Shown here piece by piece: positions 26,888 to 33,313 of a stretch of 64,000 nucleotides of DNA. Under the pieces are notes generated by a model. That model did no database searches. It worked only from the letters and a program-made list of their open reading frames with translations, and was not told the DNA's origin. The translations under genes and the position numbers were made by a program. The stretch covers positions 2,108,001 to 2,172,000 of the forward strand of contig NW_027191413.1 of assembly GCF_041146345.1 (NCBI RefSeq), in the 5' to 3' direction. Each line of letters starts with the position of its first letter. Within the stretch, counting starts at the first letter, position 1. The DNA comes from Neodothiora populina. Lineage: Eukaryota.

Positions 26888-28269
26888 TTAATGACTCGGT
26901 TTTGTGTTCATCCACGACTCAATCCTTTGCAAGTCTGAGTCAGCTGTGGTTCCACTCGCTCCACCTGTCTTGAGGATGACTGCGGCAGAATCAATAAGCA
27001 TATCGCGATCAACTGCCTTGCACATATCGAACACGGTGAGTGCAGCGACAGATACGGCTGTCAGAGCCTCCATTTCCACCCCGGTTGGACCAAAGCAATC
27101 AACCTTGGCCTCTATCACCACACCTCCACCTGCGCGTTTCTTACTTGATCTGACCCATGTGATACGCTCTTGTGGTTCCACCATGTAGAACTTGATGCCA
27201 ACTTTGCTTAACGCCAGAGGATGGCACAGTGGTATGAGGTCCGAGCAACGCTTTGCTGCCATGATACCAGCAACCCTCGCTACACCAAGAACATCACCTT
27301 TCTTGATGCTGTTCTCTTTGATCAATTCAAGTGTTTCAGGATTGGAGAAACGTATGAAGTTGAGTGCTGTAGCGGATCGGTGCGTTGAGGGTTTACGCGA
27401 GACATCGACCATTTGTGCTTCACCAGTCGAAGTGACGTGAGTCAAGGTTGGAGAGCCAGATCGTTTTGAAGTAACGGGAAGAGGCAGCGGGTCGTTTGAC
27501 ACAGCTCCGAGATTTGCCGTTGCATTTGGATCGAGTATTGAGGAAGGCGATGTTGCTGCATCGCGCGGAAGCTCCCAAGGAGCACGAAGAGAATTTCCGT
27601 CATCACTGCCCATTGCCTTTCGAGAGCCCTTATGTGAGTGTTGAAAGTGAGTCGGTCGATAAACCTGATACTCTGATTTTTCAGAAGGAGCTAGCGTGGT
27701 GTTACTCGGATTCGCTCCTCCCTCGCGACTTGCCGAATTCGATTGATGTTCTGATACTGGTTTCGTCGCTTTGTCTTGCAGTGAAGCTCTTCTATCATTT
27801 GACGTGTTTGCTCGCAAGTTCGAACGTCTTTCGCTTTCTAGAGTCAACGCCTCTCGATCTGACGAGGGAGACTTGGTGGGACTGGACTCTGGTTCGGCTT
27901 CACTTCTGGTCCCGGTCGAAAGCAACGGACTATCTGCAGCATGCATCCGCTCAGGAAACAAGGCACCTAAGCTTTGAAATGCTGGGACTGCTCCATCCTT
28001 GACGTCGACCATCAATTCCGCCTCAGCATCGGCATTGTAGTTCTTTTCATCATGAACCTCATGAGTCGACGTTTCCTCCGCATTGGAGACTTGCGCCTCC
28101 CGTCGACTTGCTGAACTTGTTGAATATAAACGCGCATGCGACGTGTTAGAAACATTTGAGTGCAGCAAGTGCAGCGGTATCTGAGACCATGAGTTCGCAG
28201 ACAAGACTGGCGACCTGGCCATGCGCTTAACACGCGAGACCTCCATGTGTCCCGTCTCTTTTCTTTCAG
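26888..28269 (-). CDS. cnxABC: Linker + MoaC/MOCS1B cPMP synthase exon (fused to MoaA via alternative donor)
   Basis: LTHV...AQMVDVS.K, KKGDVLGVARVAGIMAAK, LIPLCHP, TGVEMEALTAVS, DMCKAVD and KTGG motifs. Branch point TACTAAT and acceptor TAG ending at 28270. Confidence 0.92.
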
Positions 28270-28367
28270 CTATCACAATCATTAGTACCATCTTGATCAA
28301 GCGCGTCTCGGCCAGAAGCACGCCCTAAAGCCATCGTCTGACCCAACAGGACCAGCGAGAAGTGGAC

Positions 28368-29741
28368 CTACCCACCAATCAAAATCATCGGTCGATTCTT
28401 CATGTTTTCGAGCTCGCCGATTCCTGCGTGCTTCTCTTTCTTTCGCTTGACTGCCATGCCGATGACGTCGAGAAGTTCGGCCTCGCGGTCAATCCACTGC
28501 GGCCCCGTTGCCTCAACAAGACCTTGTCGGCGGTTCATTTCGAGCTCCTTGATCGCCTCGAAGGCTGCTTGGTCGATCGGCTGATTGTTGTTGTCCTTTC
28601 GCATGAGATCTCGTAGTGAAACCTCAGCATTGCCGAACAGGCAGACCTTGAGATTGCCGTCACCGGTGATGCGCAAACGATTGCAGCTGCCACAGAAGTT
28701 GTGAGTCATACTGGTGATGAAACCAAGTTTTCCAACAAAGCCAGGGACCTCATAAGTCTTGCTGGTGTCGTTGAAATGGCCTTCCACCTTTCGCAGACCA
28801 GGATACTTTCCTCGAATCATGTCCAACATCTCGCCATAGGGCAGCATCTTGCGCTCGCTCCATTTGTTTCCGTCAAAGGGCATATACTCGATGAAACGGA
28901 CCTCGATATCCTTCTCGCGACCCATCTCGACGAAGGGAATGATCTCTCGATCATTGATGCCTCGCATCACTACACAGTTGACCTTCAATTTGATGCCAGC
29001 TCCCAGACGATTCGTCTCGAGAACACGGTCTATGCTCCTCATGACAGCTTCGAAGCCCTTGCGTCGGGTCAAGATCTGGAATTGGAAAGGATCCAGTGTG
29101 TCCAAGCTGATATTGAGACCTGTCAGTCCTGCTTCCACCATCTTGTCGAGTTTCCTGTGCAGACTGATGCCGTTCGTGGTAAGAGCAAGCTCTCGCAGGC
29201 CCTTGCTTCGAAGGCTACCAATCTGCTGCATCAGAGGCACAATATCCGGTCGAACCGTCGGTTCGCCACCAGTGAGTCGGATTTTAGTAACGCCCTGCGA
29301 GACAAACAAGGATGAGAGATAGAATATCTCGGGTGTTGTCAGAAGATGTGCCTGAGGAGATAGCGGAACTCCCTCTGCGATATCGTCAAGTCAGTCACAC
29401 AGAAGACTCAAAGTATTAACTCGAAAATGTGGCAGTTCAAACATACCTTCGGGCATGCAGTATAGACATCGTAGATTGCAGCGCTCAGTCACGCTGATAC
29501 GAAGGTAATCGTGCTGGCGATTGAACGTGTCGGTCAAAAAGTCGGAGAAAGGCTTCGCATCCCTTATCGCACGCCTGCGCTCAGTGTTGACAGGCAAGGG
29601 GTGAGAGGGAAAAGGAGCGGTGGGTTCTTGATGTTGCACAGTAGACGCAGCTGCAGAAACAAGTCGTCGCACCGTCTGCCGCCGCCGCAACGACGGCAGC
29701 GCGCGTAGAATGCCACGACCGGACGAGTAACGCTGCATCAT
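28368..29741 (-). CDS. cnxABC: MoaA/MOCS1A radical-SAM GTP 3',8-cyclase (molybdenum cofactor step 1); intron 29446-29375
   Basis: [19 protein letters not shown] (CX3CX2C), [19 protein letters not shown] and C-terminal RPMILIGG*. The Arg-rich N-terminus resembles a mitochondrial presequence. Confidence 0.95.
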
Positions 29742-30153: not shown

Positions 30154-32826
30154 CTATCGATACACGTTGATCCCAAGATCATCCAGCACCCCCAAGTCGG
30201 CAGCCAATTGCCAGAAATCGGTTTGCCCCTTGACTCCCCTTAAGCCTGTGCTCAAAAGTCCTTCTTGTCTATGGCAGTCAAGCACGACTTGTTTCAATCT
30301 GTCCCATTCCTCGTTGTCGGCGAGACACTTGATCACGGCCGCCATAGCCAGCCAACCTGGTCTCTTGCCCTCTTTGCTCATCCGTGTGAGGAAAGCCATG
30401 GTCTGACCCACGTTTCCATGCCTGGCGTACGCCTCGACCATCCTGTCGTAGAAAATGACATCTAGGACCGCGCCGTAGTTGTGGTTGCGGCTTCGGATCT
30501 GGTTCCACAGAGCGTCCGCTGCTTGGAAGTCCGGAGGATCGGAATCAAAGTAATATGTCATGAGGATGGTGTATATATGCGTCGTCGGCTCGACATTTGA
30601 CCTCGCCATGTGCGCGAGGACTGCCTGAACTGCTTTCAGATTGCCATACTCCTTGAGCAGTCGATCGACAAGGAGCCCGTAGCCTTTCTCGTCGATCGCC
30701 ATACCTGCTGATTCGAGTGACGCGATATATTGCATGACTGTCTCTTCTTGTTCAGCACGGCTGAGGCCCTTCAGCATAGACGAGTAGAACATAGAATTCA
30801 GTAAAATGGTAAAGGTGTTTGAGTCGGGTTGCACGTTCGCTGCAGCCATGCTGTTCAGGAGCTGATGCGCCTCCTCGGGCCGCTCCTGAGCCAAGTAGAT
30901 GTTGATCAGTGTGTTGAATGTGATGATGTTTGGCTGGATGTCGAAGGTCTTGCTCCAAGCGAGCACGTCTGGAATGTGCTTGCTAAACTTGTTCCCAAGA
31001 GCACTGAGTGCTGAATTCAGGATTGCAGTGTCTGGTTTCGGGATCCCATCGATGACCTCCTCTCTCGAATTGTTACCGACGGCTGAGCTAGATTCATTCT
31101 TCGCAGATCGGCCACGTCGCTTCTGCGCATCAATCCACTCTCGACCCATCTCTTCTAGTGCTCGCAGCCCTTCCTGCACCAAGCGCGTTTTCAGTAGTCC
31201 ATGAATCCTTGTACCCCAGGCCAATCCATCAGGCTGTACTCCAGATTGACGCATACGATGCCATAGTGATTCCATAATATGGGTATCGCGAGAGTACTGG
31301 CAGCCCTTCATCATGATCGACCACGTGTGGACGGACGGCTCGATGTTCGACTTGATCATCGTGTTCCAGATATTCAGTGCCGATTGCGGACGCTTCAGCT
31401 TGAAGAAGGCGATGAGAAATTGCTGATAGAGCTTGGTGACAGCATCCTTAGATGTTGCATCAACTTGTGAACGGCAGAATGGTTGAGCCTTCTTCCAGAT
31501 CTTCTCCAACGAATCCAGATCCTGCCTTTCACTTGCGCGACCGATACCTCGTATGAGCTGCTGGGACGTATGCTCGGAATCATTCGAGTGAGACGGATCC
31601 TGATGCACCTCGTTGTTGGCTTCCTGGCGTACATGGTGTCCGAGTCGTGTCACAAGCCCCTGTACCTCCTCGCTGCCCAGTCCGAACTCCTGCAATCTCT
31701 GCGATAGTGCAGACACTCTAGCCGGATCCATAGTGGTATGTTTGAACAATTCGTCGATAGACTTAATGAATCCAGTATATGGCTCCGTGCTCGATGAGGG
31801 GACATCGCATTTCGGCAGCACATAATTAAGCAGATCATAGGTGACGAGTGCCGACGCAGCCAAATGATTGAAGCGGCCTTTCTCTGCCATCGTCCCGGAT
31901 CGTAGTCCTGACGTCGCGACTGGCACCAGAAGGGCGAAATTATGGTCGAAGCGCTTATCTTGGTGGGTTGCCCGTCGATGAACCAGAAGATCATGTGGAA
32001 TGAATGACCAGGGCGACGGATGGGAATCCGCATCTGGCTTCTGGTCCTGCTCCTTCTCAGCAAGTGCATCGCGCTGCAAACACAGCCTCCATAAATCCAT
32101 ATGCTCTTTCACTCCACGTGAATACTCCTCGGGGTCGAAAGTGGAAGTTACACCAGCTTTTAACAGGGCGGTCGACATGGATGCTAGAGTCCTCATATAT
32201 GTTGCTGGAGTCGCAATACCGACTTGTTCGAACCTCTTTACCACGTCTGACGGAGATGGCAATTGAAGCAGATCAGAGTCAGCACCATTGAGGCGAGAGT
32301 TCCATGCGGTCACAAGTCTCGCCAGCAAGAAGGCAAAGACATTGCCACTGCGCACTTTAGCAACATCTCGGAAGGACGGTCTAGCAAGGGCCGGGCTATC
32401 TTTGCTGCTGTAGTGTTCACAGAAGAAGTCCCATGCCTCAAGGAGCTGAGAGTTCCTGACCAATATCTCTAGCTCTGCCGTATATGATCTTTGCGATTGT
32501 GATGTTCGATTAGTTTCAGTACTGGTTGTAACAGGACGAGGACCAGAGTCTACTGCCCGCGGTTGACGAGAGTAGCGGCCAATAGTCTTGGGGCTCGATG
32601 CTGCGTTGGCAATGTATGAGGTGAAGTCGTCGTTCGGCGCACTATCACGTGGTGTTGTTGCATATCGTGGACGTCGTACCGTCCTCGGTACAGGAGGTGA
32701 ATCGGATAGGATGTCTTCGATTACTTGCGAGGACGCCCACGCGACCTGTCTCTTACTCGCTGCACATTGCACAGACTGGCGCATCATTCGGTGGTAGCAT
32801 GCCGAGCACACATACGGTACTGTCAT
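30154..32826 (-). CDS. Mitochondrial pentatricopeptide-repeat (PPR) protein
   Basis: Repeated ~35-aa units (PSVHTWSIMMKG, QPNIITFNTLINIY, QPDSNTFTILL, EPTTHIYTILM, DVIFYDRMVEAY). N-terminus from ATG 32826 resembles a presequence. Confidence 0.85.
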   Translation of the reverse strand: MTVPYVCSACYHRMMRQSVQCAASKRQVAWASSQVIEDILSDSPPVPRTVRRPRYATTPRDSAPNDDFTSYIANAASSPKTIGRYSRQPRAVDSGPRPVTTSTETNRTSQSQRSYTAELEILVRNSQLLEAWDFFCEHYSSKDSPALARPSFRDVAKVRSGNVFAFLLARLVTAWNSRLNGADSDLLQLPSPSDVVKRFEQVGIATPATYMRTLASMSTALLKAGVTSTFDPEEYSRGVKEHMDLWRLCLQRDALAEKEQDQKPDADSHPSPWSFIPHDLLVHRRATHQDKRFDHNFALLVPVATSGLRSGTMAEKGRFNHLAASALVTYDLLNYVLPKCDVPSSSTEPYTGFIKSIDELFKHTTMDPARVSALSQRLQEFGLGSEEVQGLVTRLGHHVRQEANNEVHQDPSHSNDSEHTSQQLIRGIGRASERQDLDSLEKIWKKAQPFCRSQVDATSKDAVTKLYQQFLIAFFKLKRPQSALNIWNTMIKSNIEPSVHTWSIMMKGCQYSRDTHIMESLWHRMRQSGVQPDGLAWGTRIHGLLKTRLVQEGLRALEEMGREWIDAQKRRGRSAKNESSSAVGNNSREEVIDGIPKPDTAILNSALSALGNKFSKHIPDVLAWSKTFDIQPNIITFNTLINIYLAQERPEEAHQLLNSMAAANVQPDSNTFTILLNSMFYSSMLKGLSRAEQEETVMQYIASLESAGMAIDEKGYGLLVDRLLKEYGNLKAVQAVLAHMARSNVEPTTHIYTILMTYYFDSDPPDFQAADALWNQIRSRNHNYGAVLDVIFYDRMVEAYARHGNVGQTMAFLTRMSKEGKRPGWLAMAAVIKCLADNEEWDRLKQVVLDCHRQEGLLSTGLRGVKGQTDFWQLAADLGVLDDLGINVYR

Positions 32827-33313
32827 GCCCTGCTGTTGCAATCTTTTATCCTCACCGAACACACCAATATACTGAGAGTTGAGCTCAAGCTAAGGAGAGG
32901 AAATCTCGGATCACACAGATAGCTAATCTCAACCAAGCGTCGGAGACTTGTGTTAGTAAACTACATGGAAATCCACAGATTATGTGTTACAGTAAAGCTA
33001 AATCTGCTATACAGCAGAACACCCAGGTGGAGGCCAAGCCAGAAGCCTTACGATACCGTACCGAGCGTACTTTACAGTACTTGTACCTTACTGTGTGACC
33101 TTATGCAAACCCTCGGCTTCGGGCCGAGCTTTTGAGTAACGCCCCGGCTTAAACCACATGCACGTGTTTCACAAACAACCATTCAACACATCATCCCCTG
33201 TCGTTTACCTGATCTTGGACTAAGGTATCCTTCATTCTGTTTCAAGACTCCTCTTCTGAACTCTCTTCACTTTATCAAGTTCAAGTAGGGACTTTCATCT
33301 TCTGCTCGCCATC

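What the first reader, a model, noticed from the sequence alone, without database searches (positions are those of the whole stretch)
28266..28379. Tandem splice donors 4 nt apart switch the MoCo gene between MoaA-GG-stop and a MoaA-MoaC fusion
Seen: the minus strand reads ATT G|GTGG|GTAGGT...TACTAAT...GATAG|CTGAAAGA. Donor 2 (GTAGGT, 28371) spliced to the acceptor at 28270 gives GGT GGC TGA = ...MILIGG*. Intron retention gives GGT GGG TAG, the same MILIGG*. Donor 1 (GTGGGT, 28375) gives ATT GCT GAA AGA..., removing the GG motif and stop and entering the MoaC frame. Two outcomes therefore rebuild the identical GG terminus and one makes the fusion. Established: MoaA/MOCS1A needs a free C-terminal GG, and human MOCS1 uses alternative splicing to make MOCS1A versus MOCS1AB; A/AB variants are also reported for Neurospora nit-7. 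Inference: this 4-nt donor choice sets the MoaA:MoaC ratio. Automated annotation would probably capture only one form.
Basis: partly seen in the sequence, partly recalled or inferred. Interest (0 to 1): 0.72.

Follow-up and report, generated by a model that had tools for sequence, protein, structure and literature searches.

The report
Conserved twin splice donors, fungal MOCS1
This fungal gene makes the first two molybdenum-cofactor enzymes from one transcript, a known arrangement, and probably does so with two splice sites four bases apart, one fusing the enzymes and the other rebuilding the first enzyme's essential end, a detail conserved in many related fungi but not yet seen directly in RNA.

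Summary
The locus is the genome's only MoaA-MoaC gene (MOCS1/nit-7 type). Donor 1 (28375) gives an 890-aa fusion identical to the NCBI-annotated protein. Donor 2 (28371) and intron retention both give the same 432-aa MoaA ending in GG.

Making A versus AB by splicing is known (human MOCS1; Neurospora nit-7, by retention). What this work adds is comparative evidence that donor 2 is under selection. With acceptors called blind, a stop follows the acceptor in donor-2 frame in 36 of 40 orthologous loci with a strong donor 2, in 2 of 20 with a weak one, and at 2.8% of background sites. Across 37 loci that triplet changes 10 times on the tree, always stop to stop. Donor 2 and the stop are both absent in three clades, including the Sordariomycete-like one, which fits the retention reported for Neurospora.

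No RNA reads cover this junction. One public ORF hints at a donor-2 cDNA in a relative. The independent-pairs test was underpowered, and regulation of the ratio is untested. The scan noted MOCS1-type switches on other genomes, but not this one. Verdict: new variant of a known kind.

The parts
29447..29738 (-). Exon 1: start codon, Arg-rich acid-free N-terminus (mitochondrial-presequence-like) and the CxxxCxxC motif of MoaA. A second ATG at 29741 gives the 891-aa annotated isoform.
   Evidence: Model identical to P0001; P0121 differs by one N-terminal Met; 8 Arg and no Asp/Glu in the first 36 aa
29375..29446 (-). Intron 1 (GTATGT...CAG)
28372..29374 (-). Exon 2, MoaA body; ends at 28376 with donor 1 or at 28372 with donor 2
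   Evidence: Pfam Radical_SAM and Mob_synth_C
28368..28376 (-). GGT GGG TAG: Gly-Gly-stop read on retention; overlaps both donors
   Evidence: Gly1 is GGT in 83 of 99 loci and Gly2 is GGG in 77 of 99
28370..28375 (-). Donor 1, GTGGGT: 106-nt intron, MoaA-MoaC fusion (ATT G|CT GAA)
28366..28371 (-). Donor 2, GTAGGT: 102-nt intron, rebuilds GGT GG|C TGA
   Evidence: Sequence; conservation; use not observed in RNA
28281..28286 (-). Branch-site-like ACTAAT
   Evidence: First site picked by the blind rule
28270..28272 (-). Shared acceptor TAG
28266..28269 (-). Exonic C-TGA: last base of Gly2 plus stop in donor-2 frame; Ala-Glu in donor-1 frame
28118..28132 (-). RLYST in the linker: candidate mitochondrial processing site that would release MoaC (inferred)
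   Evidence: A like motif lies within 90 aa of the junction in 60 of 96 annotated fusions, 2.4 expected from shuffles
26888..28269 (-). Exon 3: long linker and MoaC domain (about 26960-27412)
   Evidence: Pfam MoaC; only MoaC match in the genome

Best explanation
One pre-mRNA yields both enzymes of cPMP synthesis. The Gly-Gly-stop codons double as two overlapping 5' splice sites that share one acceptor. Donor 1 removes GG and the stop and fuses an inactive MoaA to linker+MoaC. By analogy with Neurospora this fusion is imported into mitochondria and cut to free MoaC (inferred; candidate site RLY-S). Donor 2 keeps GGT GG and takes the last Gly base and a stop from the next exon, giving active MoaA from a fully spliced mRNA. 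Retention gives the same MoaA. The two donors are of similar, modest strength, so both products arise by competition. Shown: sequence and products; donor-1 form annotated here and present as contiguous ORFs on short public contigs of relatives; selection on the exonic stop. Inferred: use of donor 2 here, its share against retention, import and cleavage. Odds: donor 1 used 0.95; donor 2 used and yielding MoaA 0.8; choice between them regulated 0.3.
For: Donor-1 model equals P0001. Single MoaC match and one MoaA match over cut-off in the genome, so GG-ended MoaA must come from here. Blind acceptor calls: stop in donor-2 frame in 36 of 40 loci with +5 G at donor 2 and 2 of 20 without; among frame-confirmed acceptors 24 of 24 and 2 of 9; background 34 of 1220; later linker codons in that frame 13 of 720. 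In 37 strong-donor-2 loci (window included) the triplet is TGA 25, TAA 9, TAG 3, never TGG, with 10 changes on the tree and 13 different fusion dipeptides; later triplets are stops in 1, 1 and 0 of 37. Donor 2 and stop are both absent in three starred clades. Pairing with this genome's U1-like 5' end: -10.0 (donor 1) and -9.7 kcal/mol (donor 2). Neither hexamer is among the enriched donor words. Unnamed proteins P0078, P0349, P0350, P0355 read straight through MILI-D/G, as donor-1 cDNA would. Logan protein P0126 starts M-DDKHY directly at the junction, which donor-2 cDNA explains through GTG. GG is essential and AB lacks MoaA activity (PMC9026282 passages).
Against: No RNA read or contig covers the junction here. 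The independent-pairs test had 2 pairs on starred branches, p = 1; the Fisher value ignores kinship. Two loci keep the stop with a weak donor 2 (L005, L014); four blind calls with a strong donor 2 lack it (L026, where the in-frame acceptor does have it; L028, L029, L046). P0126 is the only such start among 128 N-termini screened and none was seen in the 109 further members; its DNA could not be viewed. Annotated junctions D-G (4) and D-Q (3) of 118 cannot carry the stop if the annotation is right. In Neurospora, retention is the nitrate-induced form and a second donor variant was dispensable.
Confidence: 0.75

Rival explanations
1. Retention is the main source of MoaA, as in Neurospora. Donor 2 is occasional mis-splicing at the +5/+6 GT of donor 1, and the exonic stop is a fail-safe that keeps such products functional.
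For: Retention supplies NIT-7A and rises with nitrate in N. crassa (PMC7232280). Donors 4 nt apart are the commonest tandem donors and reflect the GT at +5/+6 of the consensus (PMC2423196 passages). Lineages without donor 2 keep the gene, so retention alone can suffice.
Against: The stop has been held through 10 changes across several classes, which needs appreciable use of donor 2. The bases after the stop (GT) that strengthen donor 2 travel with it; selection against an error would be expected to weaken donor 2.
Confidence: 0.3
2. Donor 2 is never used. The conserved N-T-R-R after the acceptor reflects acceptor context or protein constraint on the linker.
For: No direct read. T at exon +2 is also common in loci without the stop (ATCC, ATTC, ATGG), and shared ancestry inflates the counts.
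Against: 13 fusion dipeptides, yet never TGG although G is seen at +3 (25 of 37) and at +4 (3 of 37). Stop and donor 2 are absent together in three clades. P0126.
Confidence: 0.1
3. MoaC is made separately, from an ATG in exon 3 (28246) on the MoaA message or from its own promoter, and the fusion is incidental.
For: In-frame ATGs precede an RLY-S motif in the linker; a bicistronic reading was discussed for A. nidulans cnxABC (as cited in PMC7232280).
Against: In N. crassa a separate NIT-7B is not imported and does not complement; A plus AB are needed. Donor 1 is held at GTGGGT against codon usage. Contiguous fusions occur on short public contigs of relatives.
Confidence: 0.07

Closest known systems
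Neurospora crassa nit-7 (NIT-7A / NIT-7AB; PMC7232280)
   Same: One locus; the intron carries GG and the stop; splicing gives the AB fusion, retention gives A; a second, later donor variant is also reported.
   Different: The second donor there lies 9 nt after the first, with the same acceptor, and was not essential. Here it lies 4 nt after, changes frame, and completes Gly2 and the stop from the next exon. Sordariomycete-like loci lack both strong donor 2 and exonic stop. The N. crassa sequence itself was not examined.
Human MOCS1 splice types I, II, III (bioRxiv 10.1101/429183; PMC9026282)
   Same: Alternative splicing decides between GG-ended MOCS1A and MOCS1AB, whose B part is released in mitochondria.
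   Different: Human uses partial (15 nt) or whole removal of exon 9, not a 4-nt donor pair with a rebuilt stop.
S. cerevisiae HEH1/SRC1 competing 5' splice sites 4 nt apart (PMC12830679)
   Same: Overlapping donors 4 nt apart give a long and a short protein by frame change; a mechanistic model for such a choice exists (U5/U6, Hub1, RES, Prp8).
   Different: Unrelated gene; there the upstream GC donor gives the short form. Here the upstream donor gives the long form and both products are needed for one pathway step.

Membership tests
MOCS1 / nit-7 / cnxABC bifunctional locus | Radical-SAM MoaA domain followed by MoaC at one locus, same strand | tested here: met
   Pfam PF04055, PF06463, PF01967
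MOCS1 / nit-7 / cnxABC bifunctional locus | A form ending in free Gly-Gly | tested here: met
   Retention and donor 2 both give 432 aa ending MILIGG; shown as sequence, not as transcript
MOCS1 / nit-7 / cnxABC bifunctional locus | A splice that removes GG and the stop and fuses A to B in frame | tested here: met
   Donor-1 model identical to annotated P0001
MOCS1 / nit-7 / cnxABC bifunctional locus | Both transcript types are expressed | tested here: inconclusive
   No RNA holder listed; the one run laid does not cover the junction
MOCS1 / nit-7 / cnxABC bifunctional locus | Mitochondrial import and release of the B domain | not testable with these tools
   Only sequence hints: Arg-rich N-terminus, conserved R-x-Y-S linker motif
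Functional 4-nt tandem donor (HEH1/SRC1 type) | Two donors 4 nt apart sharing an acceptor, of comparable strength | tested here: met
Functional 4-nt tandem donor (HEH1/SRC1 type) | Both junctions observed in RNA | tested here: inconclusive
   None in this organism; indirect signs in relatives: four contiguous fusions for donor 1, one ORF start for donor 2
Functional 4-nt tandem donor (HEH1/SRC1 type) | Choice is regulated by trans factors or conditions | not testable with these tools
   No expression data

The most novel reading that the evidence does not exclude
In most filamentous ascomycete classes, donor 2 rather than retention is the main route to active MoaA, and a conserved, nitrogen-responsive 4-nt donor switch sets the balance of the two enzymes of cPMP synthesis. 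The retention model from Neurospora would then be the derived exception after loss of donor 2 in Sordariomycetes.
Probability: 0.3. Interest if true: 0.7.

Novelty: new variant of a known kind. Interest (0 to 1): 0.5.

Why it matters
Nitrate assimilation and every other molybdo-enzyme depend on this step, which PMC7232280 names as the regulated one in Neurospora. If donor 2 is used, many ascomycetes make the active enzyme by a route that the model species does not show. It would also be a conserved case in which both frames of a 4-nt tandem donor give needed proteins, testable with a few base changes. Practically, annotation here lists only the fusion that lacks GG, so the active MoaA is missing from this organism's protein cluster.

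Tried and rejected
RNA evidence: no RNA holder listed; the one run laid (probably DNA) gave 5 short pieces, none over 28198-28625. This is not evidence either way.

Spliced fungal cDNA among the metagenome loci: none recognised.

Independent-pairs test of co-evolution: underpowered, no verdict.

A third GT at 28367: weak U1 pairing (-3.5 kcal/mol); it would give the same MoaA; not pursued.

Loci with short upstream exons and GTGAGT (L020, L028, L029, L046, L097, L107): the fungal branch rule gave no convincing acceptor; probably other groups, left unresolved.

Nitrate-regulator sites upstream: two HGATAR matches and no NirA-like match in 415 nt (motifs recalled); uninformative.

In one search the donor-2 and retention translations used an off-frame ATG and were redone. 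The scan of neighbouring AGs was off-frame and is not used.

Literature: Gray and Nicholls 2000 is not held; the supplement of PMC7232280, which may show the nit-7 junction sequences, could not be read; Probst 2014 and the original cnxABC paper were not seen.

Full report
What is there. The minus strand carries a three-exon gene with MoaA (Radical_SAM, Mob_synth_C) and MoaC domains. It holds the genome's only MoaC match and its only Mob_synth_C match over the cut-off. At the MoaA end the sequence is ATT GGT GGG TAG GT. Donor 1 (GTGGGT, 28375) and donor 2 (GTAGGT, 28371) face one branch-like site (ACTAAT, 28286-28281) and one acceptor (TAG, 28270), followed by CTGA. Donor 1 gives 890 aa; donor 2 and retention each give 432 aa ending MILIGG. 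The donor-1 product is identical to NCBI protein P0001, which the source names Neodothiora populina. Both members of that cluster are fusions.

RNA. No RNA holder was listed, and the one run laid does not cover the junction. Use of either donor in this organism is therefore not observed.

Orthologous DNA. After removing identical junctions, 99 loci remained, window included. Gly1 is GGT in 83 and Gly2 is GGG in 77 of 99, against 210 and 240 of 1196 Gly codons upstream, so donor 1 is strongly conserved. I called acceptors blind, by a recalled branch-site weight table and the first YAG after it, using neither frame nor exon letters. Of the 98 other loci, 60 had GT at donor 1 and a call; 38 were dropped. 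With G at +5 of donor 2, a stop stands at exon +2..+4 in 36 of 40; without it, in 2 of 20. Among acceptors that also give an open frame into MoaC the figures are 24 of 24 and 2 of 9. The same rule gives 34 of 1220 in 464 kb of this genome, and later linker codons in that frame are stops in 13 of 720. The four misses are L026, whose in-frame acceptor has the stop, and L028, L029, L046, which have short upstream exons and no reliable acceptor.

Selection on the stop. In 37 strong-donor-2 loci (window included; L026 reassigned by frame; L028, L029, L046, L080 left out for upstream frames under 90 aa) the triplet is TGA 25, TAA 9, TAG 3 and changes 10 times on the tree, never to a sense codon, while the fusion frame shows 13 dipeptides. 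This is hard to explain by protein constraint.

Distribution. On a tree with named proteins, strong donor 2 plus stop groups with Leotiomycete, Lecanoromycete, Onygenales and Dothideomycete names. Both are absent in the clade with Sordariomycete names, in the clade with Exophiala (where GGC or GGT in Gly2 removes donor 2), and in the L009/L010 clade (class placements from my own knowledge, backbone weakly supported). In a 58-row tree (41 rows left out, listed) donor 2 changes 5 times and the stop 4 times; 37 rows have both, 19 neither, 2 the stop only. The independent-pairs test found only 2 pairs on starred branches and gives no verdict. Among 118 annotated fusions with the motif, the 15 D-P junctions, which cannot carry the stop, all bear Sordariomycete names; D-G (4) and D-Q (3) show further exceptions, and 22 continue through GG.

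Donor strength. Against the 5' end of this genome's U1-like RNA (two matches, both below Rfam's cut-off) the donors pair at -10.0 and -9.7 kcal/mol. The enriched donor words upstream of branch sites are GTAAGT, GTGAGT and GTATGT; neither GTGGGT nor GTAGGT is enriched. Both look sub-optimal and balanced.

Indirect RNA signs in relatives. Unnamed Logan or JGI proteins P0078, P0349, P0350 and P0355 run straight through MILI-D or MILI-G, as an unspliced gene caller would read donor-1 cDNA (that these are cDNA contigs is inferred). Logan protein P0126 (983-bp contig, identical to the Sclerotinia fusion from the junction on) starts M-DDKHY. Unspliced DNA puts an N-Y-A codon before that Asp, and intron-derived starts indeed show Ser, Leu or Ile there (P0198, P0200, P0201, P0217); donor-1 cDNA puts Ile; donor-2 cDNA puts GTG, a start codon. 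It is one case among 128 N-termini, none more among 109, and its DNA was not seen. B. cinerea BCIN_10g03130 is annotated with both a 718-aa fusion and a 440-aa GG form; which splice gives the latter is not visible from proteins.

Mechanism. GG is essential for MoaA and AB has only MoaC function (PMC9026282, passages). In N. crassa both A and AB are needed; AB is imported by its N-terminal signal and B is released inside; B alone is not imported (PMC7232280, results part 2). Here the N-terminus has 8 Arg and no acidic residue in 36 aa, and an R-x-Y-S-type motif lies in the linker of 60 of 96 annotated fusions, 2.4 expected. Import and cleavage are inferred from this. My reading: donor 1 supplies MoaC, donor 2 and retention supply MoaA; shares and regulation unknown.

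What is known. N. crassa nit-7 uses retention for A and a splice for AB; the unspliced form rises with nitrate; a further variant with a donor 9 nt later is dispensable (PMC7232280: introduction, methods start, passages, results part 2 and discussion read; supplement unreadable). Human MOCS1 uses partial or full removal of exon 9 (10.1101/429183, passages). Donors 4 nt apart are the commonest tandem donors (PMC2423196, passages), with yeast HEH1/SRC1 as a worked functional case (PMC12830679, passages). PMC4528330 and PMC5817353 (passages) added nothing. Eight searches listed no paper describing a 4-nt donor pair with an exon-side stop in fungal MOCS1. The library is open-access only, and Gray and Nicholls 2000 (title seen in reference lists: diverse splicing mechanisms fuse MOCS1A and MOCS1B), Probst 2014 and the cnxABC paper were not seen; any of them may touch on it. 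Earlier notes of this scan report MOCS1-type switches on three other genomes by other routes; I did not test them.

Verdict. Real feature, member of the MOCS1/nit-7 family, with a splice route that appears undescribed and has good comparative but no direct RNA support. New variant of a known kind; interest 0.5.

Noticed in passing
L003, L007, L043, L071, L075, L082, L113 (just after [11 protein letters not shown]): Distant, probably non-fungal loci (about 50% identity) with no GT at donor 1 read GGA TGA C..., with the frame open after the stop and MoaC in that frame in six of them; four have TGA CTAG. This could be stop-codon readthrough (UGA-CUAG context, recalled) or an alternative acceptor at CTAG that skips 12 nt in frame. 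One search for MOCS1 with readthrough listed no paper on it.
   Followed up: partly
window 28118-28180: Linker motifs IPLHLL and RLYST recur in fusions of many fungi; the second is a candidate processing site (60 of 96 annotated fusions).
   Followed up: partly
L056, L073, L091, L100: Clade grouping with Exophiala: donor 2 is absent, the exon begins ATGG, ATGC or ATTC (no stop), and donor 1 reads GTGGCT, GCGGTT or GCGGCT, so the fusion donor may be GC-type or shifted.
   Followed up: no
window 30154-32889 (minus): Upstream neighbour is a 911-aa open frame with PPR repeats, ending about 415 nt before the MoaA start.
   Followed up: no
L115:1501-1511, L116: Two U1-like RNA genes in the genome, below Rfam's cut-off; both 5' ends read ATACTTACCTT.
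   Followed up: no
P0002, P0012, P0016, P0095 and others: 22 of 118 long annotated orthologues continue through GG at the junction (one ends there), probably gene-model errors around this intron.
   Followed up: no
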